From: a virus | Lineage: Duplodnaviria > Heunggongvirae > Uroviricota > Caudoviricetes | Length of the DNA: 40,323 bases | Virus record (IMG/VR): IMGVR_UViG_650377933_000001 | Location: 1-40,323 of that record | Strand: one strand, 5' to 3' | Shown: piece by piece, positions 1 to 35,760 of the stretch | Layout of the letters: each line of letters opens with the position of its first letter | Numbering within the stretch: the first letter of the stretch is position 1 | Translations under genes and position numbers: made by a program | Notes under the pieces: model-generated | What the model was told of the DNA's origin: nothing | Databases searched by the model: none | What the model saw: the letters and a program-made list of their open reading frames with translations, nothing else

Positions 1-1074
1 TCATTTGTCGATTTCAATTTTGTCCCATTCACGCCCACGACTGTCCCTATACCGCGCCGCCATTGAATCTGATTTATGCCCGAGAAGACGTTGAGCAAAC
101 TTATCGCCAATCTGATTCCGGTATAGCCTCGCCGACAGGCTACGCAGTTCATGGAATGTTGGCGGGTCTCCATCAAATGAGAGTCCAGATACATTTCTCG
201 CCTTTGTAAAATACTTAGATACTGTTTTCGGGGAAAGCGGTTCGTGATGCGTTGATGCAATTATTGTTTCACTGCCGCTGGCCTCCCTGCATTTCTGTAG
301 TGTATCAGCCAATGAGATATTGAGCGCGTCAATCGTTAGCATCAGCGGAATGGCGAGCTTAGTACCTGTTTTACCCTGCTCAATGTGAAGATGGTTGTCG
401 TTTATGTCTGACCATTTCATTCTACATAAATCGCCTACTCTCTGCCCTGTAACGACAGCCAAATCCATTGCCAGCCTCAGCCAGATTGGGAGCGGTTCGG
501 CTGCATGGTAAATCGCGACATATTCATTAGCTGTCAGCCTTGAGCGCCTTACTTCTGACTTTGCTGTGCGGGTTGCTGTTACCGGATTCGTTTCCACATG
601 CCCCTCGGCTATTGCCTCACGAAAAACGTCAACAAGGGTTGACCTGATTAATTTTGCGGAAGCTGCTTTACCTTCTGCTACGTAGGTGTTTAGCATTGCT
701 GCCACTTCTTTCGTTGATATGTCAGTGAGCGGTTTGTCCGGCAATTTTCTTCGGATTACCCTGATTTTGCTGGCGTAGTCGAGTAGAGTTTTCGGTCTGA
801 TACCCCTCTCGCTGAGGATTGTTTCATATCGGTCAAGCCACGCATGAAGAGTGATTGCGTCAGCGCCTTTAATTCTGTCTATCAGTGACTCACGCCTGTT
901 CTCGGATAGCAACTCAATATTGGCCTGAATAGCCTCTGAAACTGCTATCCTTCTGTCTCTGCCTAATCCAAACTCTTTACCCGTCCTTGGGTCCCTGTAG
1001 CAGTAATATCCATTGTTTCTTATATAAAGGTTAGGGGGTAAATCCCGGCGCTCATGACTTCTCCTTCTTCCCAT
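1..1074 (-). CDS. int: Tyrosine integrase, lambda Int family
   Basis: 357-aa translation starting MGRRRSHERRDLPPNLYIRNNGYYCYRDPRTGKEFGLGRDRR, near-identical to my recollection of lambda Int, with C-terminal HELRSL...LLGH...Y catalytic motifs. Confidence 0.95.
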   Translation of the reverse strand: MGRRRSHERRDLPPNLYIRNNGYYCYRDPRTGKEFGLGRDRRIAVSEAIQANIELLSENRRESLIDRIKGADAITLHAWLDRYETILSERGIRPKTLLDYASKIRVIRRKLPDKPLTDISTKEVAAMLNTYVAEGKAASAKLIRSTLVDVFREAIAEGHVETNPVTATRTAKSEVRRSRLTANEYVAIYHAAEPLPIWLRLAMDLAVVTGQRVGDLCRMKWSDINDNHLHIEQGKTGTKLAIPLMLTIDALNISLADTLQKCREASGSETIIASTHHEPLSPKTVSKYFTKARNVSGLSFDGDPPTFHELRSLSARLYRNQIGDKFAQRLLGHKSDSMAARYRDSRGREWDKIEIDK

Positions 1075-1270
1075 TTCTGATCCTCTTCAAAAGGCTACCT
1101 GTTACTGGTCGATTTAAGTCAACCTTTACCGCTGATTCGTGGAACAGATACTCTCTTCCATCCTTAACCGGTGGTGGGAATATCCTGCATTCGCGCACCC
1201 ATCGACGAACTGTTTCAAGGCTTCTTGGGCGTCGCTGGCGTGCGTTCCACTCCTGAAGTGTCAAGTACAT
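1052..1270 (-). CDS. xis: Excisionase
   Basis: 72-aa translation MYLTLQEWNARQRRPRSLETVRRWVRECRIFPPPVKDGREYLFHESAVKVDL matches recalled lambda Xis; 3' end overlaps the int start as in lambda. Confidence 0.9.
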   Translation of the reverse strand: MYLTLQEWNARQRRPRSLETVRRWVRECRIFPPPVKDGREYLFHESAVKVDLNRPVTGSLLKRIRNGKKEKS

Positions 1271-1375
1271 CGCAAAGTCTCCGCAATTACACGCAAGAAA
1301 AGCCGCATTGATGCGGCAATGGTAGGTCTGGATATCTTGAGAAATGAACGGGCCTCATCGAGTGTGAGGCTGTGG

Positions 1376-1720
1376 TTAGTCCTTGCGTAGCTCGCTAATT
1401 CTTCTGTAAGTCTCTGGTGCTTTGTTTCCGTGTATCTTCATTTCAGACTTCAACAGAGCAACGAGAGAATCCCATTCGTTGAGGATGCCTTTGAATGCCG
1501 GAACGCGCTTTGCAACCTTGTCGAATGAATCCCTGATTTCTGGAATCTGCTCGACAAGCGCAACGCATCGTCGGAAATCGGCTGCGTCATGTGGAGCACC
1601 GAAGCTATGACCATAGATATTCTTTTTCAGTCCACATGCGATTGAGGCAAGAGTTGCGCTACTGATGCCAACATCGCCAGTCGATTGCCATTTCAAAACC
1701 TTCATAGCCAAATCTGACAT
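1376..1720 (-). CDS. Hypothetical protein (114 aa), ea-region accessory gene
   Basis: Intact ORF with GGAG 8 nt upstream of ATG; immediately downstream of an intrinsic terminator. No family recognised. Confidence 0.55.
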   Translation of the reverse strand: MSDLAMKVLKWQSTGDVGISSATLASIACGLKKNIYGHSFGAPHDAADFRRCVALVEQIPEIRDSFDKVAKRVPAFKGILNEWDSLVALLKSEMKIHGNKAPETYRRISELRKD

Positions 1721-1730
1721 TTCTTGTCTC

Positions 1731-1756
1731 CAATAAAAAAACCGCCATCAGGCGGC
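1731..1756 (-). terminator. Rho-independent terminator (minus strand)
   Basis: Minus strand reads GCCGCC-TGAT-GGCGG followed by TTTTTTTTATT; sits at the stop of the small ORF at 1748-1915. Confidence 0.5.
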
Positions 1757-1915
1757 TTGGTGTTCTTTCAGTTCTTCAATTCGAATATTGGTTACGTCTG
1801 CATGTGCTATCTGCGCCCACAGCATCCAGTGGTCATAGCAGTCGTTGATGTTCTCTGCTTCGATAACTCTGTTGAATGGTTCTCCATTCCATTCACCTGT
1901 GACTCGGAAGTGCAT
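1748..1915 (-). CDS. Small hypothetical protein (55 aa, MHFRVTGEWNGEPF...)
   Basis: ORF below the 60-aa track cutoff, found by manual translation; GGAG 8 nt upstream of ATG; stop codon lies in the terminator loop. Confidence 0.4.
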   Translation of the reverse strand: MHFRVTGEWNGEPFNRVIEAENINDCYDHWMLWAQIAHADVTNIRIEELKEHQAA

Positions 1916-1987
1916 TTATCATCTCCATAAAACAAAACTCGCCGTAGCGAGTTCAGATAAAAGAAATCCCCGCGAGTTCGAGGATTG

Positions 1988-2272
1988 TTATTCATTGCCG
2001 ATATTCACCTTTATCGCGAACACCTTTACCGGTTTATCACCGAAGTGCGGATGTGTGATTGTCTTGATTTCATATCCGTCATACGGGACGTCAATTCTGC
2101 GGCAGGAATCGTCGCGCTTCGGATATCCCTTTGTGATAATCAGGCGGTCATACTCCCGGAACATAATTCGCTTATTCCAGTAGTCATTACACAGGCGATA
2201 CTCTTCCGTTTTCTCGCCTGACTTCATCTGGTCGAAATATTCACCTTTGACGGCAAGTTGCAGGTTAGCCAT
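1988..2272 (-). CDS. Hypothetical protein, ASCH-like (94 aa from MANLQL start)
   Basis: ORF-track translation; start chosen at ATG with GGAGGTG RBS that overlaps the upstream stop (TAATG). ASCH-like call is from memory of similar prophage proteins. Confidence 0.5.
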   Translation of the reverse strand: MANLQLAVKGEYFDQMKSGEKTEEYRLCNDYWNKRIMFREYDRLIITKGYPKRDDSCRRIDVPYDGYEIKTITHPHFGDKPVKVFAIKVNIGNE

Positions 2273-2532
2273 TACCGCACCTCCAGTCTCCATACCGCCT
2301 GACCAATCCGGCTGGCATAGGTATCTTTGGATACTGCTCCGTCTTTAGCCAGCTCCATAAGAATTTTGCGCAAATCTGCCGAACGCCATTCTTCATCAGG
2401 AAATTCCTTCTCCATTGCCAACCGCAGATTCCAGGTTGCCATCCTGAATGGATATTCCCCGCCGAGAGCTTTATCTTGCAGGGCAGCCCGGGAACGCATC
2501 ACCTGCAAAATCTTCTCTTTGACATCCATCAT
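2272..2532 (-). CDS. Hypothetical protein (86 aa)
   Basis: ORF with GAGG RBS; start ATG overlaps the stop of the upstream gene (ATGA). Confidence 0.5.
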   Translation of the reverse strand: MMDVKEKILQVMRSRAALQDKALGGEYPFRMATWNLRLAMEKEFPDEEWRSADLRKILMELAKDGAVSKDTYASRIGQAVWRLEVR

Positions 2533-3167
2533 TTTGCCTCCTGAGGCGGTTCCGGTAGAGGCATCCAGAACAAGGCGTTCCCTAACCACGATAAAGTGCC
2601 GTCGCTCAACTCCACGTATTCCTCTTGTACCTGTCCTGCCATATACTCGCCGTGCTTTGAATAAATTAAAATCCAGTCATCTTGAGCGGGCATTCGCTCA
2701 CTACAGCTTATCCAACCATCCGGAGTTACCGGAGCGTTGCCACCGGGAATATTTTCCGGAATATTTTGTTGTGCGTTTTGTGGTTGTTCGGATTTACCCT
2801 GAAGCATGGCGGCGCGGCAGGCGTTCCAGCCAGCTGTTCGCCCAAGCGCGTAAACTTCAGATGGCTCAAGATAATCAATGTCATGCCCATCCTCATCGTC
2901 GTTCTCAGGTAATGCAGCAGGTACTACCGGTACTGGCGGAGCGGCGTAGACTTCAATAATCCCATTATCAATAGGCCATTCCCCATCCTTGATGTAGTCA
3001 CTTGTGCCGTCAACTTGCTGTTCTGCAATGTGGAATGCACCAACTGGCTCTGCCTCAAGCGAGGCCAGTGCAATTCGTGCCAGTTCCATTTGTTCGCCAC
3101 GGGTAAGCCCGTTTTCAAGCGGGGATTTAATGAACAATTCGATACGTTCTTTAGTGATAGTGCTCAT
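2529..3167 (-). CDS. Hypothetical phage protein with DUF551-like C-terminus (212 aa)
   Basis: Start taken at MSTITKERIE, 1 nt after the upstream stop; C-terminal ...DGTLSWLGNALFWMPLPEPP resembles the DUF551 region as I recall it. Confidence 0.55.
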   Translation of the reverse strand: MSTITKERIELFIKSPLENGLTRGEQMELARIALASLEAEPVGAFHIAEQQVDGTSDYIKDGEWPIDNGIIEVYAAPPVPVVPAALPENDDEDGHDIDYLEPSEVYALGRTAGWNACRAAMLQGKSEQPQNAQQNIPENIPGGNAPVTPDGWISCSERMPAQDDWILIYSKHGEYMAGQVQEEYVELSDGTLSWLGNALFWMPLPEPPQEAK

Positions 3168-3168
3168 A

Positions 3169-3771
3169 TCACTCTCCTTTGATGCGAATGCCAGCGGCGC
3201 GGATAGATTTCCATTGTTTCCACATTCGGTTGAAGTCTGTGCCTGATAAGGTTGCGTTACGGTATCCAGTTTCGGTGCGCAATCCTTCAAGCGTCGATTT
3301 GGAGATACAAATTGAATGCATTACCCATGATTCAAACAAATCACGCTCACGGGCTTCGCAACTTTGCTTACTCATCTCTTCGATACGTTCAGCCATCGCA
3401 GCACACTCTTCAAAGTTGCTTAATGCATTTCGCTCCCATTCGGCGCATTGTTTTCCAAGCTCTGCAATCAGCTTGTCTTTGCCTTCCAGCTCAACACGCA
3501 GCTTCCCTACCGTTAACGCAATATCCTCGTTCTCCTGGTCGCGGCGTTTGATGTACTGCTGGTTTCTTTCCCGTTCATCCAGTAGTGCCAGCACGGTTTC
3601 TGGTCCGGCCAGAAATTTGAAGGCGTTGAGCGCATCAATATCCACACCGTAATCTTTAAGTTCCTGTTCACTTAACAAATCATCATCAGCTGGCAACATT
3701 AACAGGCGTTCCATCGCTGGAATTGCACGTTCCGCCGCCTCACGCAGTGCCTGATAGTTAATTTGGGTCAC
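3169..3771 (-). CDS. Ead/Ea22-like coiled-coil protein (200 aa)
   Basis: ORF-track translation; GTG start overlapping the upstream stop (GTGA) with GGAGG upstream; acidic coiled-coil character typical of Ea22-like proteins. Confidence 0.55.
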   Translation of the reverse strand: MTQINYQALREAAERAIPAMERLLMLPADDDLLSEQELKDYGVDIDALNAFKFLAGPETVLALLDERERNQQYIKRRDQENEDIALTVGKLRVELEGKDKLIAELGKQCAEWERNALSNFEECAAMAERIEEMSKQSCEARERDLFESWVMHSICISKSTLEGLRTETGYRNATLSGTDFNRMWKQWKSIRAAGIRIKGE

Positions 3772-3992
3772 TCTTCATCCTCCAAGTCGGCAACGGCGTC
3801 CATCACATCAGAACCGCGAATAACCTCAAAAGCACGGCAGGCCATTTGAAATACCAGTTGCTCTTGCGGATGCGGTGATTCCCAATATTTGAATCCAGGG
3901 CGATGCGCGTACCCCATCATTGAATAAAAATCACCAGCAAGCTTAATCGCGGCATCAACAAGCTCTCTGTTAGTCATTCTTTTTCCGCTCAC
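3768..3992 (-). CDS. Hypothetical protein (about 74 aa, GTG start)
   Basis: AGGAGG RBS 6 nt upstream of a GTG that overlaps the upstream stop (GTGA). Confidence 0.45.
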
Positions 3993-4156
3993 TGGTTGCC
4001 TCCTTTGCGCCACATCGCATTCAGATATTTGTTTTGATTTACTGATGGAAAAGAATTTCTCTTAAGCAATTCCTCTCTCGATGGCATTGGCTTTACGCGT
4101 TGGCGAATAATCATTTCTGCCGGAAGAATGCCGGGATTGTATGCAAGTCCTCTCAT
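3989..4156 (-). CDS. Small hypothetical protein (55 aa, MRGLAYNPG...)
   Basis: GAGGAA RBS 7 nt upstream of ATG; stop coupled to the downstream GTG start. The longer 106-aa track ORF overlaps abc2 and is not favoured. Confidence 0.3.
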
Positions 4157-4166
4157 GGTAAATTCC

Positions 4167-4463
4167 TCAGTCATTACTGATAGCGCCATAGCGTGATCGA
4201 TAATTACGCAGGCGCGGGTCGATATATTCAGGGAAGTGGGTATATGTGGCTTTGCGGAATGGTCGGATTGATGTCTGGTAAATTCGCTCGCGCTCTTCTT
4301 TCTCTGCAAGCCATATACAGTGGCGAAATTCCTTTTCCTCTTTTGTTTCCTGCGGTAGCGACATTATCCGGTCGTAGTTTTTTCTGAATTTATCCAGCAC
4401 CTCCGATACGGAATTGCCGGAACAGCGGCGCGGGTCATCCGCACCATACAGAGGCGCTGGCAT
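4167..4463 (-). CDS. abc2: Anti-RecBCD protein Abc2
   Basis: 98-aa translation [31 protein letters not shown]... matches my recollection of P22 Abc2; located next to erf as in P22. Confidence 0.65.
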
Positions 4464-4486
4464 AATGGAATCCTTATTTTTCTAAA

Positions 4487-4870
4487 TCAGAATGGGATGG
4501 AATCGTCGTATACAGGAGTGTTCTGCTGGTTACTACTTTGCTGCTGCGGGCCATTTCCTGAAGCTGCAAATCCAATCTTTGCATTCAGTAATTCAAGAGT
4601 GATTGATTGACCATTTTGCCCCTGATAAACATCAACCCTGATGTTTTCTCCGGTAATTTCCACAATGCCACCTTCAACAAGAACACTACGGTAGTAATCC
4701 GCTTGCGCTCCCGGCTTGGCAAATACAACGGCGCTGTAGTTTGTCCATTCTTTCTTTTTTGTCTGGCGATCGTAATACTGAACTCCAGCACGGATGTTGA
4801 ATCCGATATTTTCCCCGGCCTGAAACTCTCTTGCGGGCTTGTTTAGTCTTACAGTAATCGAATGTGCCAT
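4487..4870 (-). CDS. ssb: Single-stranded DNA-binding protein (phage SSB)
   Basis: Start MAHSITVRLN overlaps the erf stop (TAATG); C-terminal acidic tail ...PVYDDSIPF is the hallmark SSB tail; Gly/Gln-rich linker. Confidence 0.75.
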   Translation of the reverse strand: MAHSITVRLNKPAREFQAGENIGFNIRAGVQYYDRQTKKKEWTNYSAVVFAKPGAQADYYRSVLVEGGIVEITGENIRVDVYQGQNGQSITLELLNAKIGFAASGNGPQQQSSNQQNTPVYDDSIPF

Positions 4871-5475
4871 TAAGCAGCCGCTCCTTCTAATTCGTCTCGT
4901 CTGATGTTGTAAACGTCCTGCGCTTTGTGCTGCTCCGGTGTGCCTTCGAGCATCTTCCACGCTTTGGCGAACGCCTGTTTAAGCTCTTCCACGGTGTTTT
5001 TCTGCAATGCTGCGTCAGTGAATGCTTTTAGAACCTGTTCAGGTGTAGGTGATGGTTTTGATTGCTTTGCTGCTGCGTTCTGCTGATGTTTATGCTCGTC
5101 GGTATCTGCATCTTTCGCATCATCAATGCCGAACAAACCATTGAGGCAATACTTGCGTGCATAAGAGCTTGTGGCTCCCGTAACTTGTGCAGAATCCATT
5201 CCTTTCTTGCTTTCTTCCTCTCGTGCAAGAGCGGTTGCCGTATGACTGTTTTCGCCATCGGTAATAGTTGCCGTGGCTTTCACGTAATACCGATCACCAA
5301 TCAACACAACTTCATCGCTGATTGATAAAAACAGGCCATTAAGCAGCGGCTTAACGCCTTCAAGAATATCTTCGCAGCTTCTGTATTTATATTTACCGAA
5401 TGAGTTGTACTGATTCTTTGGCGCGTTCAGATTCTCCTGAATAGCTGCCAGTCTTGCGTAAAATTCTTTGCTCAT
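4870..5475 (-). CDS. erf: Erf-family single-strand annealing recombinase
   Basis: Translation from MSKEFYARLAAIQENLNAPKNQYNSFGKYKYRSCEDILEGVKPLL matches recalled P22 Erf; the longer track ORF has an unsupported N-terminal extension. Confidence 0.85.
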   Translation of the reverse strand: MSKEFYARLAAIQENLNAPKNQYNSFGKYKYRSCEDILEGVKPLLNGLFLSISDEVVLIGDRYYVKATATITDGENSHTATALAREEESKKGMDSAQVTGATSSYARKYCLNGLFGIDDAKDADTDEHKHQQNAAAKQSKPSPTPEQVLKAFTDAALQKNTVEELKQAFAKAWKMLEGTPEQHKAQDVYNIRRDELEGAAA

Positions 5476-5485
5476 ATGATTGTTC

Positions 5486-5656
5486 TCAGAATGGACATGG
5501 CCCAAGGAAATAACGCTGATTTAATACTTCGACTCGGGACAAGTTAAGGAATACCCGCATTCCTTCGCGGTCACCATTATGGCGATACCAGAGAGCTTTC
5601 TGCGTGTACATGCGTCTCTGTAACTTGCTCTCCTTCACTGTGGTTGCAAGTGACAT
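5486..5656 (-). CDS. Small ORF (56 aa, MSLATTVKESK...), arf-position candidate
   Basis: Manual translation; AAGGAG RBS 7 nt upstream. Overlaps the 5577-5735 ORF in another frame, so only one is likely real. Confidence 0.3.
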   Translation of the reverse strand: MSLATTVKESKLQRRMYTQKALWYRHNGDREGMRVFLNLSRVEVLNQRYFLGPCPF

Positions 5657-5735
5657 GAATATCTCCTTCGTTATCGATTAATTCTTTCATCTGACGAATG
5701 AATTCTTCGTCTGACCAGTTATCTGTAAAACTCAT
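5577..5735 (-). CDS. Small ORF (52 aa, MSFTDNWSDEEF...), arf-position candidate
   Basis: Manual translation; ATG overlaps the kil stop (ATGA), suggesting translational coupling. Competes with the 5486-5656 ORF. Confidence 0.3.
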   Translation of the reverse strand: MSFTDNWSDEEFIRQMKELIDNEGDIHVTCNHSEGEQVTETHVHAESSLVSP

Positions 5736-5884
5736 TTCCTGCGATACCACGGAAGGTTGATAGCTGATTTCATCGCTTTATTTGCTTCAAGCCACATTTT
5801 TGAATCACCAATAAATCTGGCTATTACTGCTTTGTTCTGTGCAGCACGAAGCATCTGGTGATTGATGGCTATTTCATTGCGCAT
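5732..5884 (-). CDS. kil: Kil-like host division inhibitor (50 aa)
   Basis: Manual translation MRNEIAINHQMLRAAQNKAVIARFIGDSKMW... resembles the lambda Kil core as I recall it; lies just downstream of cIII as in lambda/P22. Confidence 0.5.
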   Translation of the reverse strand: MRNEIAINHQMLRAAQNKAVIARFIGDSKMWLEANKAMKSAINLPWYRRK

Positions 5885-6000
5885 AATAAGACCTCAACTC
5901 TTTTCCATCCGTCACGTAATTTACGGGTGATTCGTTCAAGTAAAGATTCATTTAATTGGAAGGCACCCATGCGAGCGCCTCCCGCGATTGCGTAAATCAT
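5869..6000 (-). CDS. cIII: CIII protein (FtsH inhibitor, 43 aa)
   Basis: Manual translation MIYAIAGGARMGAFQLNESLLERITRKLRDGWKRVEV...; the ESLLERITRKLRDGWKR stretch matches the lambda CIII core. Confidence 0.7.
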   Translation of the reverse strand: MIYAIAGGARMGAFQLNESLLERITRKLRDGWKRVEVLLCAMK

Positions 6001-6024
6001 GGGTGGTTCCTTATGTTGGTTTTA

Positions 6025-6993
6025 TTAGTAGGTTATTTTTGTTGCGAATACTTCGCCTTTTACGATGGCTGTTATGATATTTTTAGCAACATCTTCTGAT
6101 GCGCCAACCTTGATAAGGTCAGCAAGTATTTTGTTATTTACTTCTTTCCGGTGAGCTTTATCCTTTGCTCTACACTCTTCCTCTTCCTTGATTCTTTTTT
6201 CTTCTGCTATTCTGGCTTGCTCTTTTGCTTCAGCCTCGCGCCGGATTCGTTCAGCCTCCTCCTGTGCTTTTCGGCGTTCTGCTTCAATTGCCGCCTGCTT
6301 TTCTCTTTCAGCTCGTTCTGCTGCCTCTTTTGCTTCGCGCTGTGCTCGTTGCTCGGCTTCAATGCGTTCACGCTCTGCACGTTCCGCTGCGGCCTTAGCT
6401 TCTGCTTCTCGCCTTGCTGCTGCTTCAATTTCGTCTTTTGCCTTTGCTTCGGCTTCTGCTCTGGCTTTCTCTTCAGCTTCTCTTTTTAAGCGTTCTTCAT
6501 GCTCTCGCTTTTCCTGCTCCGCTTTGAGTCTTGCCTCTTCTCTTTGGCGGTCAAATTCGCGATCCATCAAAATAGCTATTTCATGGTCAGACTCAATTTG
6601 CTTTGCGAGAGCTTCAGCTGCTGCCTTAGCTTCTTCTTCGGCTTTAATCCGCGCCCGTTCTTCCTCATAATCAGTAAGAGGCTGGCGTGCCTTGGCTTTC
6701 AGCTCATCAAGGCGATCACGCACTGTCTTGCGGTTAGCATCAATTAGCTTTGGAATTTCCTTCAGTTCAGCAACAAGGTCTTTGCCAAGACCATCGAGAT
6801 ATGTTTTCGTCTGCGCAACTTTATACGCCAGAGAAGCGATCTCCTTTCTGCCCTTTGCCGTTGTGATATCAGGCACAAAGGACATAACTTCACGTTCAAC
6901 CTTTTGAAGGATTTCTTCAATCTGGTCGGCAGACTGAAATACAGTCATTGCATTTGCTTTTTCAATAACAACTAAATCTGTTACTTCACTCAT
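6025..6993 (-). CDS. Hypothetical E/A/K/R-rich coiled-coil protein (322 aa)
   Basis: ORF-track translation; GGAGGA RBS; structured N-terminal ~120 aa, then ~180 aa of low-complexity AEAEAKA/ERAERE repeats, then a short C-terminal domain. No family assigned. Confidence 0.6.
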   Translation of the reverse strand: MSEVTDLVVIEKANAMTVFQSADQIEEILQKVEREVMSFVPDITTAKGRKEIASLAYKVAQTKTYLDGLGKDLVAELKEIPKLIDANRKTVRDRLDELKAKARQPLTDYEEERARIKAEEEAKAAAEALAKQIESDHEIAILMDREFDRQREEARLKAEQEKREHEERLKREAEEKARAEAEAKAKDEIEAAARREAEAKAAAERAERERIEAEQRAQREAKEAAERAEREKQAAIEAERRKAQEEAERIRREAEAKEQARIAEEKRIKEEEECRAKDKAHRKEVNNKILADLIKVGASEDVAKNIITAIVKGEVFATKITY

Positions 6994-7003
6994 ATATCCT
7001 CCG

Positions 7004-7034
7004 TCAAAAAATTGCCCTCACACTGGAGGGCAAA
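7004..7034 (-). terminator. Rho-independent terminator (minus strand) upstream of the 322-aa gene
   Basis: Minus strand TTGCCCTC-CAGTGT-GAGGGCAA followed by TTTTTTG, ending a few nt before the RBS of the gene starting at 6993. Confidence 0.5.
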
Positions 7035-7165
7035 GAAGATTTCCAATAATCAGAACAAGTCGGCTCCTGTTTAGTTACGAGCGACATTGCTCCGTGTATT
7101 CACTCGTTGGAATGAATACACAGTGCAGTGTTTATTCTGTTGTTTATGCCAAAGATAAAGGCCGA

Positions 7166-7789
7166 CTATGCGGCCTCGGAAGGAAGTCCAATCATCTTAT
7201 TCAAATCTTCTACCCGTAAAGCAGGAAGTGCTGTACTTGCTTTATCTGCTTCTTTTGGTAGCAATTCTTTGCTTTCAGGCCAAACTTCAATAAGTCGCTT
7301 AACTGTTGTGACTGAGTTTAAAGCAGCCCATACATTTGATTCGATATCCTTTTTCTTGGCTTCAAGTTTTTGTTGCAATGCGCAGATTTCATCAAACCTT
7401 TTTGTTATTTCGTGCTCTGCGTCAAACATGCATTTATCTTTGGTCGGAGTAGGGAGCAATATATCTTCGCCGTTGCCGTCTTTCCCATATGAATGCCATC
7501 CAACCCTTCTGCCAGATACAGTCAGATAAATTGAAGTAGAACGAACATCGCATGAGTAAAATGAACATCCCAGTTTTTCAAGTTCTTCACTTATAGCTAC
7601 TAACTTGGAATATAAATGATCCACTTCCTCAGTTTTCTTTTTACCGCCAAACGCAATAACTCTGGCGTCAAGTGCAAGCTGGTTCTTTAACTTTGTTACT
7701 TCTTCAAGTTCAGTGAAAACCCCAGACTTAATTAAAGCGTTACGAGCGATTTCCTCTTTCATTCTCGTAGTTAAGCGGATTGATGACAT
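7166..7789 (-). CDS. Hypothetical protein (207 aa), pL-operon accessory gene
   Basis: Start chosen at MSSIRLTTRMKEE with GAGG 8 nt upstream; no recognisable catalytic motif by eye. Confidence 0.55.
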   Translation of the reverse strand: MSSIRLTTRMKEEIARNALIKSGVFTELEEVTKLKNQLALDARVIAFGGKKKTEEVDHLYSKLVAISEELEKLGCSFYSCDVRSTSIYLTVSGRRVGWHSYGKDGNGEDILLPTPTKDKCMFDAEHEITKRFDEICALQQKLEAKKKDIESNVWAALNSVTTVKRLIEVWPESKELLPKEADKASTALPALRVEDLNKMIGLPSEAA

Positions 7790-8581: not shown

Positions 8582-8833
8582 TTATTTCCGGTAGCCTGCC
8601 GCGTAAATGGCTACATTTGGCAGGCAAACACTTCCACTGCATTCATCTGCCTTCTTGCAGCGAAGGGTTCCTAGTGATGCTGCTTTATCTGCTCTGACGC
8701 AACCAGAGAGCTTTAGCGCAATCTTTCGCGCCAGTCGCTGTTCTTGCATTGCCTGTTCACGTTGAGCCTGTCTGCGTGCTCTGCGGCGATTTCTGGCGTT
8801 ATCGTCAGCCAGATATGTAATGACTACTGTCAT
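8582..8833 (-). CDS. N: N-type transcription antiterminator (P22 gene 24-like)
   Basis: 83 aa with N-terminal arginine-rich motif NARNRRRARRQAQREQ and C-terminal ...LPNVAIYAAGYRK resembling recalled P22 gp24; GGAGG RBS; first gene downstream of pL/nutL. Confidence 0.7.
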   Translation of the reverse strand: MTVVITYLADDNARNRRRARRQAQREQAMQEQRLARKIALKLSGCVRADKAASLGTLRCKKADECSGSVCLPNVAIYAAGYRK

Positions 8834-9232
8834 GTTGACCTCCGATGAAACAACTTTGGAATTTTTTTATTACAAAGTGGTTTCCTTCCCCGCCAATTAG
8901 ACGGGGATGGAAGAGCATTTATGAGCCTTTATGGACTCTGCTCGATCAGTTCTATTTAATTAATCTCTCAACTGAATGTAAGTATTCACATAAATCCTCC
9001 TACCTCTTGTGCAGCTTTCTTGAATATGGTGGCGGCTGCATAACGCCTATGGAATTGACTTTGGCGATTGGATGGCCGGTGCTGAACTCCGGCTTACTGG
9101 TTAGAGCGCCCGCACTACCAGTGACGCTGTCTTGAGGCGCAGATTGGTTACTGCTTGCCATGAGCGCTGTTTATACATTGGTCGAGCATCAGCCTGCTCA
9201 TTCATCCAATCCCAAAGCCAACTACTCTTTGG

Positions 9233-9312: not shown

Positions 9313-9400
9313 ATGGCTTAAATTTAAGATCTCTTTAATTAATGGTCAAGAGTATTTTTGAAGAAAACTTAAATTTTCTTTCGTAACTTAAGTTTGGCTT
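9313..9400 (-). promoter_or_regulatory. pL promoter with P22-type oL operators
   Basis: Minus strand -35 TTGACC (plus 9344-9349), 17-nt spacer, -10 TAAATT (plus 9321-9326); operator ATTTAAGATCTCTTTAAT at 9322-9339 between -35 and -10; further AAG/CTT half-site-like repeats up to ~9400. Confidence 0.5.
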
Positions 9401-9417: not shown

Positions 9418-9445
9418 AAAAAAAAGGGGCGAATGCCCCCTTATG
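9418..9445 (-). terminator. Rho-independent terminator after the repressor gene
   Basis: Minus strand GGGGGCATTCGCCCC followed by TTTTTTTT immediately after the c2 stop. Confidence 0.5.
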
Positions 9446-10091
9446 GAAGGTTTGCTAGTTTTGCATCGACAACTACGCCGATGATTTTGCAGTTTCCGTT
9501 GATCTCGATCATCGGATATTGTGGGTTAAGTGGTTTTAGAAACTTCCTGCCTGCATCAATAACTAACTTCTTGAAAGTTGCCTCGTTTTCTCCTTCGAGC
9601 TTTGCAACTACCAGTTTCCCGTTACGCGGCTCTACTTCAGGATCGACGAGTATTATCATTCCTTCAGGGATACTGAGACCGGCCGGAGCCGTCATTGAGT
9701 CTCCCTTCACGTCCAACCAAAACGAATCTTCTGAACAGTCTACGGTTGTATCGTACCAGTTATCTATTGCACGCTTATGATATGGTTCTACAGCTTCCAT
9801 CCAGCATCCTGCGCTCACCCAGCTAATCAGAGGGTATGACCCTCTTGGATCATGCCTACTGTGATAGGCAATGTTTGAAAGACTTTCCTCTCCTTTCATC
9901 AGATAGTCAGGGGAACACTTCAACGCATTAGCCAGGGCGAGAAGATTCTCTCCATTTGGCTCTGTCTCAGAGCGTTCCCACTGAGATATGGCAACATTAG
10001 ACACGCCGACCATCTTTCCAAGTGCGGCCTGCCTGATCTTGAGTTCTTTTCTCCGAGCGCGAATGCGCTCTCCCATCAATTGAGTTTTCAT
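9441..10091 (-). CDS. c2: Prophage repressor, P22 C2 type (HTH plus S24 LexA-like autopeptidase domain)
   Basis: 216-aa translation MKTQLMGERIRARRKELKIRQAALGKMVGVSNVAISQWERSETEPNGENLL... near-identical to recalled P22 C2; start codon abuts OR3, implying a leaderless pRM transcript. Confidence 0.95.
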   Translation of the reverse strand: MKTQLMGERIRARRKELKIRQAALGKMVGVSNVAISQWERSETEPNGENLLALANALKCSPDYLMKGEESLSNIAYHSRHDPRGSYPLISWVSAGCWMEAVEPYHKRAIDNWYDTTVDCSEDSFWLDVKGDSMTAPAGLSIPEGMIILVDPEVEPRNGKLVVAKLEGENEATFKKLVIDAGRKFLKPLNPQYPMIEINGNCKIIGVVVDAKLANLP

Positions 10092-10465: not shown

Positions 10466-10759
10466 ATGGTTCGTGCAAACAAACGCAACGAGGCTCTAAG
10501 AATCGAGAGTGCGTTGCTTAACAAAATCGCAATGCTTGGAACTGAGAAGACAGCGGAAGCTGTGGGAGTTGATAAGTCGCAGATCAGCAGGTGGAAGAGG
10601 GACTGGATTCCAAAGTTCTCAATGCTGCTTGCTGTTCTTGAATGGGGCGTCGTTGACGACGATATGGCTAGATTGGCACGACAAGTTGCTTCGATTCTCA
10701 CCAATAAAAAACGCCCGGCGGCAACCGAGCGTTCTGATCAAATACAAATGGAATTTTAA
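10466..10759 (+). CDS. cII: CII transcriptional activator
   Basis: 97-aa translation MVRANKRNEALRIESALLNKIAMLGTEKTAEAVGVDKSQISRWKRDWIPKF... matches recalled lambda CII; the track ORF has an unsupported 5' extension. Confidence 0.9.
   Translation: MVRANKRNEALRIESALLNKIAMLGTEKTAEAVGVDKSQISRWKRDWIPKFSMLLAVLEWGVVDDDMARLARQVASILTNKKRPAATERSDQIQMEF
10475..10488 (-). promoter_or_regulatory. CII-binding site of pRE (TTGC-N6-TTGC)
   Basis: Minus strand TTGCGTTTGTTTGC inside the first codons of cII, as in lambda pRE. Confidence 0.5.
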
Positions 10760-16848: not shown

Positions 16849-17468
16849 GACTCGAAAGCGTAGCTAAATTTCATTCGCCAAAAAGCCCGATGATGAGCGA
16901 CTCACCACGGGCTACGGCTTCTGACTCTCTTTCCGGTACTGATGTGATGGCTGCTATGGGGATGGCGCAATCACAAGCCGGATTCGGTATGGCTGCATTC
17001 TGCGGCAAGCATGAACTCAGCCAGAACGACAAACAAAAGGCTATCAACTATCTGATGCAATTTGCACACAAGGTATCGGGGAAATACCGTGGCGTTGCAA
17101 AGCTTGAAGGAAATACTAAGGCAAAGGTACTGCAAGTGCTCGCAACATTCGCTTATGCGGATTATTGCCGTAGTGCCGCGACGCCGGGCGCAAGATGCAG
17201 AGATTGCCACGGTACAGGCCGTGCGGTTGATATAGCCAAAACAGAGCAGTGGGGGAGAGTTGTTGAGAAAGAGTGCGGAAGATGCAAAGGTGTCGGCTAT
17301 TCAAGAATGCCAGCAAGCGCCGCATATCGCGCTGTAACGATGCTAATCCCAAACCTTACTCAACCCACCTGGTCACGCACTGTTAAGCCGCTGTATGACG
17401 CTCTGGTGGTGCAATGCCACAAAGAAGAGTCAATCGCAGACAACATTTTGAATGCGGTCACACGTTAA
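16845..17468 (+). CDS. Q: Late-gene antiterminator Q (lambda type)
   Basis: 207 aa, matching recalled lambda Q throughout, including the zinc-binding CRDCHGTG...CGRCKG; directly upstream of pR'. Confidence 0.85.
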   Translation: MRLESVAKFHSPKSPMMSDSPRATASDSLSGTDVMAAMGMAQSQAGFGMAAFCGKHELSQNDKQKAINYLMQFAHKVSGKYRGVAKLEGNTKAKVLQVLATFAYADYCRSAATPGARCRDCHGTGRAVDIAKTEQWGRVVEKECGRCKGVGYSRMPASAAYRAVTMLIPNLTQPTWSRTVKPLYDALVVQCHKEESIADNILNAVTR

Positions 17469-35662: not shown

Positions 35663-35760
35663 TTCGCTTGGATGCGGCAAAGAAATCAAAACAGTGAAGC
35701 CCCAACTGCGGGAACAGTCAGGGCTTCGGTATCGTAAAACCACGCATAGGAATTAACGAC

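What the first reader, a model, noticed from the sequence alone, without database searches (positions are those of the whole stretch)
1376..4160. ea-region cassette of translationally coupled accessory genes
Between xis and abc2 lie at least eight small genes, several joined by overlapping stop/start codons (TAATG, ATGA, GTGA) and each preceded by a Shine-Dalgarno sequence. They include an ASCH-like protein, a DUF551-like protein and an Ea22-like coiled-coil protein. This is the classic variable region of lambdoid phages, and several members have no assigned function. An internal intrinsic terminator (1731-1756) splits the cassette.
Basis: partly seen in the sequence, partly recalled or inferred. 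Interest (0 to 1): 0.45.

Follow-up and report, generated by a model that had tools for sequence, protein, structure and literature searches.

The report
Lambdoid prophage exo–xis accessory gene cassette
This is the ordinary, well-known "spare parts" stretch of a lambda/P22-type prophage: eight small early genes of mostly unknown function, tightly packed, shuffled between phages and punctuated by transcription terminators that are also found in phage lambda.

Summary
Between xis (1052-1270) and abc2 (4167-4463) lie eight conserved minus-strand genes. Four junctions overlap (TAATG, ATGA and two GTGA) and a fifth has a 1-nt gap. Every gene has a GGAG/GAGG Shine-Dalgarno core. A strong terminator sits at 1739-1758.

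It is the exo-xis (lambda) or ea (P22) segment of the pL early-left operon, here in a P22-like E. coli prophage.
- g2 is lambda orf55 (98% aa identity).
- g6 is an Ea22/EaD-type protein with a different C-terminal domain.
- g5 is an EaA-type DUF551 protein.
- g8 is P22 orf56 (DUF2737).

Three are near-identical to lambda's published predicted t3, t4 and t5. HK022's record labels the first one tL4.

g1 plus its own two hairpins is an insertion relative to lambda. It lies exactly between the t5 T-tract and the CII box of pI.

Across the 83 g1-holding loci there are 60 different gene-content patterns. Similarity breakpoints across all 85 loci cluster at gene and domain boundaries.

g1 and g7 give confident all-alpha models with no informative solved relative. 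The ASCH assignment of g3 is weak.

Verdict: real, ordinary, low interest.

The parts
3989..4156 (-). g8: 55-aa DUF2737 protein, the homologue of P22 orf56. Its start is 10 nt after the abc2 stop.
   Evidence: Pfam PF10930 at 109 bits, above the cut-off of 25. It is 77% identical to P22 orf56. It co-occurs with abc2 in all 38 loci that hold abc2, and is about 14 nt away in 27 of them.
3768..3992 (-). g7: 74-aa acidic-tailed protein (phrog_4132, C-terminal part). GTG start overlaps the g8 stop (GTGA); an alternative ATG lies at 3977.
3169..3771 (-). g6: 200-aa Ead/Ea22-family protein. The N-terminal and central part is shared with lambda Ea22 and P22 EaD. The C-terminal domain (about residues 126-200) is different and rare.
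   Evidence: Pfam PF13935 at 100.6 bits, cut-off 27, residues 3-139. 56% identity to lambda Ea22 over residues 1-101. 72% identity to P22 EaD over residues 62-104. No PDB sequence match, which includes the solved lambda Ea22 CTD. DNA of the C-terminal domain is shared by only 3-4 of 85 loci.
2529..3167 (-). g5: 212-aa EaA-type chimera. It has a shared N-terminal module, a rare middle part and a C-terminal DUF551 domain (residues 151-209).
   Evidence: Pfam PF04448 at 41.1 bits, cut-off 22. 59% identity to the P22 EaA N-terminus and 38% to its C-terminus. It is a singleton cluster at 90% identity. Breakpoints fall inside the gene at domain borders.
2272..2532 (-). g4: 86-aa protein that NCBI names 'eaa protein' (phrog_2814). 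ATGA overlap with g5.
   Evidence: PHROG E 7e-52. Names. Found in 102 phage records, including P1-like phages.
1988..2272 (-). g3: 94-aa protein that NCBI annotates as ASCH domain-containing (phrog_625). TAATG overlap with g4.
   Evidence: PHROG E 1e-50. Pfam ASCH scores only 14.3 bits against a cut-off of 21.2. 15 of 33 homologues give weak ASCH hits. G19-x-K21-x-x-E24-x-R26 is invariant in 33 homologues.
1935..1986 (-). Tandem intrinsic-terminator hairpins between g3 and g2 (1986-1965 and 1954-1935). They correspond to lambda t3 and t4; HK022's record labels the first one tL4.
   Evidence: fold z-score -4.2. Near-identical to lambda. They match the t3 and t4 predictions of PMC4195576. The HK022 record annotates tL4 at this hairpin. 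In other loci the first site holds unrelated hairpin sequences followed by the same T-tract.
1748..1915 (-). g2: 55-aa homologue of lambda orf55 (lambdap35).
   Evidence: 98% aa identity to lambda. PHROG E 3.7e-40. Present in some g1-holding loci and absent from others as an indel module.
1729..1758 (-). Strong intrinsic terminator that overlaps the g2 stop codon. It equals lambda t5, and in P22 the same hairpin is annotated as the terminator of the rightward aI RNA.
   Evidence: 8-bp stem plus T7. Identical in lambda and P22. Listed as t5 in PMC4195576. P22 annotation.
1376..1720 (-). g1: 114-aa all-alpha protein (phrog_1229). It is an insertion relative to lambda, lying between t5 and the pI promoter.
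1298..1370 (-). Two hairpins after g1: 1370-1352 and 1317-1302, the second followed by a T-run. They close the g1 cassette directly upstream of pI.
   Evidence: The first hairpin is kept in nearly all loci. The second is kept wherever an HK022/lambda-type xis follows.
1283..1296 (-). CII box TTGCGTGTAATTGC of the pI-type promoter, just upstream of the xis start. It lies outside the finding and is given as context for the terminators.
   Evidence: One search finds the motif. One search shows identity with the lambda sequence upstream of xis. That this sequence is the pI CII site comes from established lambda knowledge.
9321..9349 (-). Candidate pL promoter (TTGACC, 17-nt spacer, TAAATT) that would drive the whole leftward operon. 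Context only.
   Evidence: It lies between the cI-type repressor (9441-10091) and the N-like gene (8582-8833).

Best explanation
The interval is the distal, non-essential accessory part of the pL (early-left) operon of a P22-like, HK022/lambda-integrating E. coli prophage. [quoted passage not shown]

Proposed mechanism:
1. After infection or induction, RNA polymerase starts at pL (about 9321-9349).
2. It is modified by the N-like antiterminator (8582-8833).
3. It then reads leftward through kil, arf, erf, ssb and abc2, through the eight accessory genes, and on into xis and int, passing at least seven intrinsic terminators.
4. Genes g8 to g3 are translated as one coupled unit, because their stops and starts overlap and each has its own Shine-Dalgarno sequence.
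5. g2 (lambda orf55) and g1 are separate single-gene units, each bounded by terminators.
6. Polymerase that is not antiterminated stops at these terminators. This keeps stray transcription away from the CII-dependent pI promoter, xis and int.

The same gene-boundary and terminator sequences serve as recombination junctions. Single genes and protein domains are swapped there between lambdoid phages, and even into P1-like phages.

The products are small host-modulating proteins. Ea22-type proteins favour lysogeny in lambda and Stx phages. The others have no tested function.

Shown here: gene structure, homologies, terminator hairpins and their conservation, and mosaicism. Inferred: the transcription route, antitermination, translational coupling and the protein roles.
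For: Gene order pL, N-like, sieB, kil, arf, erf, ssb, abc2, eight genes, xis, int parallels the annotated P22 early-left operon.

Homologies: lambda orf55, Ea22 and xis; P22 orf56, EaA and EaD.

Pfam Ead_Ea22, DUF551, DUF2737 and Anti-RecBCD_p2 all score above their cut-offs.

Overlapping stop/start codons and SD enrichment with P about 1e-7.

Terminator-like sites in 1-7000 number 16, against 7.0 +/- 2.5 in shuffles. Five of them cluster on the coding strand at 1302-1986.

The same hairpins occur in lambda and HK022, are predicted in PMC4195576, and the first is labelled tL4 in the HK022 record.

Unrelated hairpin sequences occupy the same site before the same T-tract in other loci.

No sigma-70-like promoter was found on the coding strand within 1300-4200.

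There are 60 gene-content patterns in 83 loci, and breakpoints fall at gene and domain borders.

Literature: the exo-xis region is transcribed from pL and its genes affect the lysis-lysogeny decision (PMC4195576, PMC7093339, PMC10834534). ATGA overlaps and intra-operon terminators are typical of lambdoid phages (PMC8022706).
Against: No transcript data exist for this prophage.

nutL is only a candidate: a boxA-like CGCTCTAA at 9101-9108 followed by a hairpin, read by eye.

In lambda and phi24B, expression within the exo-xis region is not uniform, and an internal promoter has been predicted upstream of orf73. Internal promoters too weak for the consensus scan therefore cannot be excluded.

Six of the eight proteins have no experimentally supported function.

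The coiled coil in g6 was not demonstrated here.
Confidence: 0.85

Rival explanations
1. g1 and g2 are 'morons': independent cargo genes with their own promoters, expressed from the repressed prophage for the benefit of the lysogen, for example in defence or fitness.
For: Each is a single gene bounded by terminators, and each is present or absent as a discrete indel among related prophages. Relative to lambda, g1 is an insertion that carries its own downstream terminators.
Against: Only 13-27 nt separate the upstream terminator from the start codon, and that space is filled by the SD sequence. No sigma-70-like promoter was found on this strand. There are no PADLOC defence hits. lambda orf55 lies in the same pL-transcribed context.
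Confidence: 0.1
2. The cassette is mainly a counter-defence island. On this reading, one or more of the small early proteins inhibit host anti-phage systems, as the neighbouring Abc2 inhibits RecBCD. g8 (DUF2737 / P22 orf56) would be a partner of Abc2. This overlaps with the best explanation rather than excluding it.
For: The cassette lies directly next to abc2. g8 co-occurs with abc2 in 38 of 38 loci, usually about 14 nt away, and also in P22. Related prophages carry a Lar-family restriction-alleviation gene at the same position, and dATP/dGTP pyrophosphohydrolase genes recombine with g1 and g5. The proteins are early-expressed, small and hypervariable.
Against: No protein here matches a known anti-defence family. 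The only experimentally studied relatives (Ea22) affect the lysis-lysogeny decision, not defence (PMC7093339). The g8-abc2 linkage could simply reflect close physical proximity.
Confidence: 0.2
3. Some of the ORFs are not genes, and the coding information lies on the other strand. The candidate is the 157-aa plus-strand ORF at 3179-3652, which matches phrog_31165.
For: That antisense ORF hits phrog_31165 at E 1e-62.
Against: The minus-strand frame matches Pfam Ead_Ea22 and lambda Ea22, which is a purified protein whose C-terminal domain has a solved structure. Variable sites favour the third codon position of the minus-strand frame, 2/2/11. The antisense product is a Ser/Arg/Leu-rich, low-complexity sequence, as expected for the complement of a Glu/Lys/Leu-rich gene. 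PHROGs are built from deposited gene calls, so they can contain shadow ORFs.
Confidence: 0.02

Closest known systems
Phage lambda exo-xis region (orf60a, orf63, orf61, orf73, ea22, ea8.5, orf55) with predicted terminators t1-t5
   Same: It occupies the same position at the distal end of the pL operon, upstream of xis. orf55 is 98% identical. The three hairpins t3, t4 and t5 are near-identical. The Ea22 N-terminal and central part is 56% identical. xis is 97% identical, and the pI CII box is the same.
   Different: orf60a, orf63, orf61, orf73 and ea8.5 are absent. In their place are DUF2737, phrog_4132, an EaA-type DUF551 protein, the 'eaa' protein and an ASCH-like protein. The Ea22 C-terminal domain is unrelated to lambda's solved CTD. 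g1 and its two hairpins are inserted between t5 and pI. The recombination module is erf/ssb/abc2 rather than exo/bet/gam.
Phage P22 ea region (orf56, eaE, orf45, eaF, eaD, eaI, eaA, eaG, eaC) between abc2 and xis
   Same: The flanks are the same (abc2 upstream, xis downstream). An orf56 homologue lies directly after abc2. EaA-type and EaD-type proteins are present. Genes overlap tightly. The 56-nt remnant of the orf55 3' end plus the t5 hairpin and the ATTGGAGACAA linker is 100% identical.
   Different: eaC, eaG, eaI, eaF and eaE have no counterpart here, and abc1 is also absent. P22 has no g1, g3, g4 or g7. The P22 paI promoter of the antisense aI RNA lies in eaC, which is missing from this window.
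Phage HK022 int-xis-proximal region (record X51962 / NC_002166)
   Same: About 95% DNA identity from xis through g1, g2 and the tL4 hairpin into g3. int, xis and abc2 are of the same types.
   Different: HK022 shares only 46% of the interval. The central genes (g4, g7, and most of g5 and g6) differ.
nin region of lambdoid phages (functional analogue in the pR operon)
   Same: It is also a string of small non-essential genes joined by ATGA-type stop/start overlaps, and it is highly mosaic (PMC8022706).
   Different: It belongs to a different operon (early-right) and holds different gene families.

Membership tests
Lambdoid exo-xis / ea accessory region | Located in the leftward early operon, between the recombination genes (exo or abc2/erf) and xis-int, on the same strand | tested here: met
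   The order is erf, ssb, abc2, eight genes, xis, int, all on the minus strand and downstream of the pL candidate and the N-like gene. This parallels the P22 annotation.
Lambdoid exo-xis / ea accessory region | Contains homologues of named exo-xis or ea genes | tested here: met
   lambda orf55 98% and Ea22 56%. P22 orf56 77%, EaA 59% and 38%, EaD 72%.
Lambdoid exo-xis / ea accessory region | Gene content is variable and mosaic among related phages | tested here: met
   60 patterns among 83 loci. Breakpoints lie at gene and domain boundaries. No record in the two collections searched holds 80% or more of the interval.
Lambdoid exo-xis / ea accessory region | Dispensable for lytic growth; transcribed from pL under N antitermination | not testable with these tools
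   This needs deletion mutants and transcript mapping. It is inferred from lambda and P22 literature (PMC4195576, PMC8022706).
Ead/Ea22 family (PF13935) | Pfam profile match above the gathering score | tested here: met
   100.6 bits against a cut-off of 27, E 1.4e-28, residues 3-139.
Ead/Ea22 family (PF13935) | Central coiled coil and tetrameric assembly, as shown for lambda Ea22 | tested here: inconclusive
   A crude heptad-periodicity test was not better than shuffles (367 of 500). Oligomeric state cannot be tested here. The homology covers the region that PMC10834534 describes as coiled coil.
Ead/Ea22 family (PF13935) | lambda-type C-terminal domain (solved NMR fold) | tested here: not met
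   phmmer against PDB sequences found no match at E <= 1. Similarity to lambda stops at residue 101. Variable CTDs are a described feature of the family.
DUF551 (PF04448) | Pfam profile match above the gathering score | tested here: met
   41.1 bits against a cut-off of 22, residues 151-209 covering the whole 68-position profile.
DUF2737 (PF10930) | Pfam profile match above the gathering score | tested here: met
   109.2 bits against a cut-off of 25.
ASCH domain (PF04266) | Pfam profile match above the gathering score | tested here: not met
   14.3 bits against a cut-off of 21.2, covering only profile positions 1-23. Among 33 homologues, 15 give weak hits; the best E is 0.029 and none passes.
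ASCH domain (PF04266) | N-terminal GxKxxExR signature (the motif is recalled from the ASCH literature, not checked against a paper here) | tested here: met
   G19, K21, E24 and R26 are invariant in 33 homologues of 74-94% identity.
ASCH domain (PF04266) | PUA-like beta-barrel fold | not tested
A profile search against PDB sequences found no ASCH chain. NCBI names the cluster 'ASCH domain-containing protein'.
Intrinsic (rho-independent) terminators t3/t4/t5 of lambda | GC-rich hairpin followed by a T-run on the transcribed strand, homologous to the lambda sites | tested here: met
   Near-identity with lambda. The sequences appear in Table 4 of PMC4195576.
Intrinsic (rho-independent) terminators t3/t4/t5 of lambda | Demonstrated termination activity | not testable with these tools
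   PMC4195576 gives predictions only. The basis of the tL4 label in HK022 record X51962 was not seen.
isrK Hfq-binding sRNA (RF01394) | Covariance-model score at or above the gathering score | tested here: not met
   18.3 bits against a gathering score of 50. The match rests on the terminator hairpin and U-run.

The most novel reading that the evidence does not exclude
At least one of the uncharacterised products has a specific and new host-directed activity. Three candidates stand out. g1 is a confident all-alpha fold with no solved relative, found from Enterobacterales phages to a Clavibacter phage. g7 is a three-helix protein. g8 (DUF2737 / P22 orf56) always travels with abc2. Such an activity could be a counter-defence inhibitor or, for g8, a third component of the Abc anti-RecBCD module.

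A second possibility concerns the 56-70-nt unit made of the orf55 3' end, the t5 hairpin and the SD linker. It is identical in lambda, P22 and this phage. It may be a functional portable element, such as a bidirectional terminator or a recombination linker, rather than a passive remnant.
Probability: 0.2. Interest if true: 0.4.

Novelty: new member of a known kind. Interest (0 to 1): 0.15.

Why it matters
It matters little beyond annotation. The result identifies the interval as a standard exo-xis/ea cassette.

Three modest points are of use:
- The map of this cassette is a clear example of single genes and domains being exchanged at terminator and SD junctions. g1 is inserted exactly between a terminator T-tract and the pI CII box.
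- g1 and g7 are widespread, confidently folded phage proteins without solved relatives. They are reasonable targets for counter-defence or host-takeover screens.
- The strict g8-abc2 linkage suggests a testable partnership.

Tried and rejected
Known defence systems: PADLOC gave no hits for any of the nine proteins. NCBIfam also gave none.

Solved relatives by sequence: phmmer of g1, g3, g5 and g6, and a profile of g3 homologues, found nothing credible in the PDB.

Fold searches:
- g1 against BFVD found only uncharacterised phage proteins.
- The afdb50 library was unavailable.

Apparent g1 homology to dATP/dGTP pyrophosphohydrolase (PF04447): P0155, P0107 and P0145 turned out to be recombinant chimeras that share only one end with g1. 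This is not true homology.

sRNA reading of the g2 3' end plus terminator: isrK and STnc420 scored 18 bits against gathering scores of 50-70, and the matches were driven by the terminator. Rejected. At gathering threshold Rfam finds only sar RNA in the whole window.

Own promoters for g1 and g2: the consensus scan found none on the coding strand.

Coiled-coil test of g6 by heptad periodicity: not significant.

tRNA next to g1 in other prophages: a GGTTCGATTCC-like motif lies downstream of g1 in many loci, but ARAGORN found no tRNA. Not pursued.

Literature searches for 'HK022 tL4' and 'DUF2737' gave nothing useful.


Full report
**Context.** The 40.3-kb window is a complete P22-like temperate phage genome in prophage order.
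- int lies at 1-1074 and xis at 1052-1270, both on the minus strand.
- A sar antisense RNA lies at 35693-35759, with virion genes in between.
- The closest phage records are HZ41, Gally, CUS-3 and IME10.
- Several proteins of the finding are identical to proteins of E. coli O83:H1 NRG 857C.
- Leftward from the immunity region the order is: cI-type repressor (9441-10091), candidate pL promoter (9349-9321; TTGACC, 17-nt spacer, TAAATT), N-like antiterminator (8582-8833), sieB on the other strand, two genes of unknown function, kil, arf, erf, ssb, abc2 (4167-4463), the eight genes of the finding, xis and int.
- This order parallels the annotated early-left operon of P22.

**The observation.** All eight genes are real.
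- Each matches a PHROG family at E <= 4e-37.
- Where homologous DNA was available, variable sites were most frequent at third codon positions.
- PHROG profile coordinates support the shorter starts of g3, g4 and g8.
- Four junctions overlap: TAATG at 2270-2274, ATGA at 2529-2532, and GTGA at 3768-3771 and 3989-3992. g6 and g5 are 1 nt apart.
- Every gene has a GGAG or GAGG core 8-13 nt before its start. The background rate in this stretch is 10.5%, giving P of about 1e-7.
- The terminator reported at 1731-1756 is an 8-bp GC-rich hairpin followed by seven T's, at 1758-1739 on the coding strand.
- First, only g8 to g3 form a translationally coupled block.
- Second, there are five terminator-like hairpins on the coding strand, not one: 1986-1965, 1954-1935, 1758-1739, 1370-1352 and 1317-1302.
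- In 1-7000 the scan found 16 terminator-like sites, against 7.0 +/- 2.5 in shuffled sequence.

**What the genes are.**

| Gene | Identity | Key evidence |
|---|---|---|
| g8 | DUF2737 | 77% identical to P22 orf56; likewise starts 10 nt after abc2 |
| g7 | three-helix protein (pLDDT 91.7) | no informative structural neighbour; absent from all 85 compared loci |
| g6 | Ead/Ea22 family | Pfam 100.6 bits; 56% to lambda Ea22 over residues 1-101; 72% to P22 EaD over 62-104 |
| g5 | EaA-type chimera | N-terminus 59% to P22 EaA, rare middle part, C-terminal DUF551 at 41 bits |
| g4 | small 'eaa protein' | names; 102 phage records |
| g3 | ASCH-like, weakly supported | see below |
| g2 | lambda orf55 | 98% identical |

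- The C-terminal third of g6 matches neither lambda nor any PDB chain. This fits the published picture of Ea22 proteins with interchangeable C-terminal domains (PMC10834534).
- NCBI annotates g3 as ASCH, but Pfam ASCH scores 14.3 bits against a cut-off of 21.2.
- Only 15 of 33 g3 homologues give weak ASCH hits, though G19, K21, E24 and R26 are invariant. 'ASCH-like' is therefore plausible but not established.
- BFVD relatives of g1 are uncharacterised. They include a protein of a Clavibacter phage.
- Apparent links between g1 and dATP/dGTP pyrophosphohydrolase come from recombinant chimeras, not from homology.
- No protein matched a known defence family or an NCBIfam model.

**The terminators are lambda's.**
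- Aligned with lambda and HK022, the tandem hairpins before g2, g2 itself, and the hairpin that overlaps its stop codon are nearly identical in all three phages.
- Bloch et al. 2014 (PMC4195576) list these same sequences as predicted lambda terminators t3, t4 and t5.
- The HK022 record X51962 labels the first hairpin tL4.
- The P22 record annotates the t5 hairpin, read in the opposite direction, as the terminator of the aI RNA.
- In other prophages the first hairpin site holds unrelated hairpin sequences followed by the same T-tract. This argues that the structure is what is kept.

**g1 is a cassette inserted at a terminator.**
- In lambda, the t5 T-run is followed directly by CTTGCGTGTAATTGC, which is the CII box of pI just before xis.
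- Here and in HK022 the t5 T-run is followed by ATTGGAGACAAGAA-ATG and then g1.
- After g1 come the two hairpins, whose T-run is in turn followed by the same CTTGCGTGTAATTGC.
- The insertion therefore rebuilds the arrangement 'terminator, then pI'.
- g2 behaves as an indel in the same way. It is bounded by the near-repeat TTTTAT(T)GGAGA.
- P22 and some prophages keep only the last roughly 56 nt of orf55, plus t5 and the ATTGGAGACAA linker, behind a different gene. In P22 this unit is 100% identical.

**Mosaicism.**
- The 83 loci holding g1 show 60 different presence/absence patterns of the other genes.
- The ends of similarity blocks cluster at gene boundaries: 1741-1743, 1913-1918, 1990-1994, 2271-2275, 2524-2541, 3160-3168, 3770-3772, about 3967-4008 and 4153-4168.
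- They also cluster at domain borders inside g5 and g6.
- No phage record and no complete E. coli genome in the collections searched holds 80% or more of the interval in one place.
- P1-like phages (RCS47 and some P1 records) carry an ASCH, eaa, DUF551 and Ea22 block with the same gene overlaps.

**How it most likely works.**
- Antiterminated transcription from pL reads through the cassette into xis and int.
- The coupled block g8 to g3 is translated together.
- The terminators stop any polymerase that is not N-modified before it reaches pI, xis and int.
- Intra-operon terminators of this kind are noted for P22-like phages, with the same suggested role (PMC8022706).
- No promoter-like site was found on the coding strand in 1300-4200. 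The idea that g1 and g2 are lysogen-expressed morons therefore has little support.
- A counter-defence role for some of the products is compatible with the data but untested. g8 is the best candidate, because it accompanies abc2 in 38 of 38 loci.

**Verdict.** It is an ordinary, already described kind of region, and its terminators are already in the literature. This particular gene combination is a new mosaic member of that kind. Interest is low.

Noticed in passing
window 1729-1800 (minus strand); L088 1085-1160; L086 1380-1450: A roughly 56-70-nt unit is 100% identical in this window, lambda and P22, although the genes on either side differ. It consists of the last 15 codons of orf55, the t5 hairpin and the linker ATTGGAGACAA. 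In P22 it follows eaG and precedes eaC. In some prophages it follows other genes.
   Followed up: partly
window 3179-3652 (+): A 157-aa ORF antisense to the Ea22-type gene matches phrog_31165 at E 1e-62. It is most likely a shadow ORF that was called as a gene in some deposited phage genomes, so that PHROG family is probably spurious.
   Followed up: partly
L084 (phage RCS47, NC_042128) 2488-5314; P1 records MH445380 and MH445381: P1-like phage-plasmids carry an ASCH, eaa, DUF551 and Ea22 block about 94-95% identical to g3-g6, with the same stop/start overlaps. The lambdoid accessory cassette has therefore moved into an unrelated phage type.
   Followed up: partly
window 1283-1296, 10475-10488, 17132-17145 (all minus strand): There are exactly three TTGC-N6-TTGC CII boxes in the window. 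By position they fit pI (before xis), pRE (TTGCGTTTGTTTGC, as I recall for lambda) and a paQ-like site inside the Q-region gene. The count itself is not above chance (3 found, 3.7 expected).
   Followed up: partly
window 3989-4463; 38 loci; P22 26449-26923: g8 (DUF2737 / P22 orf56) is present in all 38 loci that hold abc2. It is about 14 nt away in 27 of them and about 300 nt away in 11. The two may form a functional pair.
   Followed up: partly
proteins P0107, P0145, P0155, P0121, P0127, P0144: Many database 'homologues' of g1 are in-frame chimeras between g1 and neighbouring early-left genes (dATP/dGTP pyrophosphohydrolase, Ea22, Kil, Erf). They look like products of recombination at short shared sequences.
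   Followed up: partly
loci L004, L016, L020, L050 and others, about 80-115 nt downstream of g1: In many prophages g1 is followed not by xis but by ...GCGGTTTTTTATTGCCTGATTTGCAGGTTCGATTCCC. This resembles a tRNA T-arm or an att-site remnant, but ARAGORN finds no tRNA there.
   Followed up: partly
window 7012-7033 and 7158-7177 (minus strand): Two more strong terminator-like hairpins lie inside the pL operon, upstream of the recombination genes. A polymerase from pL must therefore pass at least seven terminators to reach int.
   Followed up: no
window 9075-9108 (minus strand): A boxA-like CGCTCTAA is followed 7 nt later by the hairpin GCCGG-AGTTCAGCA-CCGGC, about 200 nt downstream of the pL candidate and upstream of the N-like gene. 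It is a candidate nutL, read by eye only.
   Followed up: no
window 2689-2744: A 55-bp stretch at the start of the DUF551 domain (aa 141-160, ...GWISCSERMP...) is shared at 88% or more DNA identity by 59 of 85 loci, although the flanking parts of the gene differ. It is a likely hotspot for domain shuffling.
   Followed up: no
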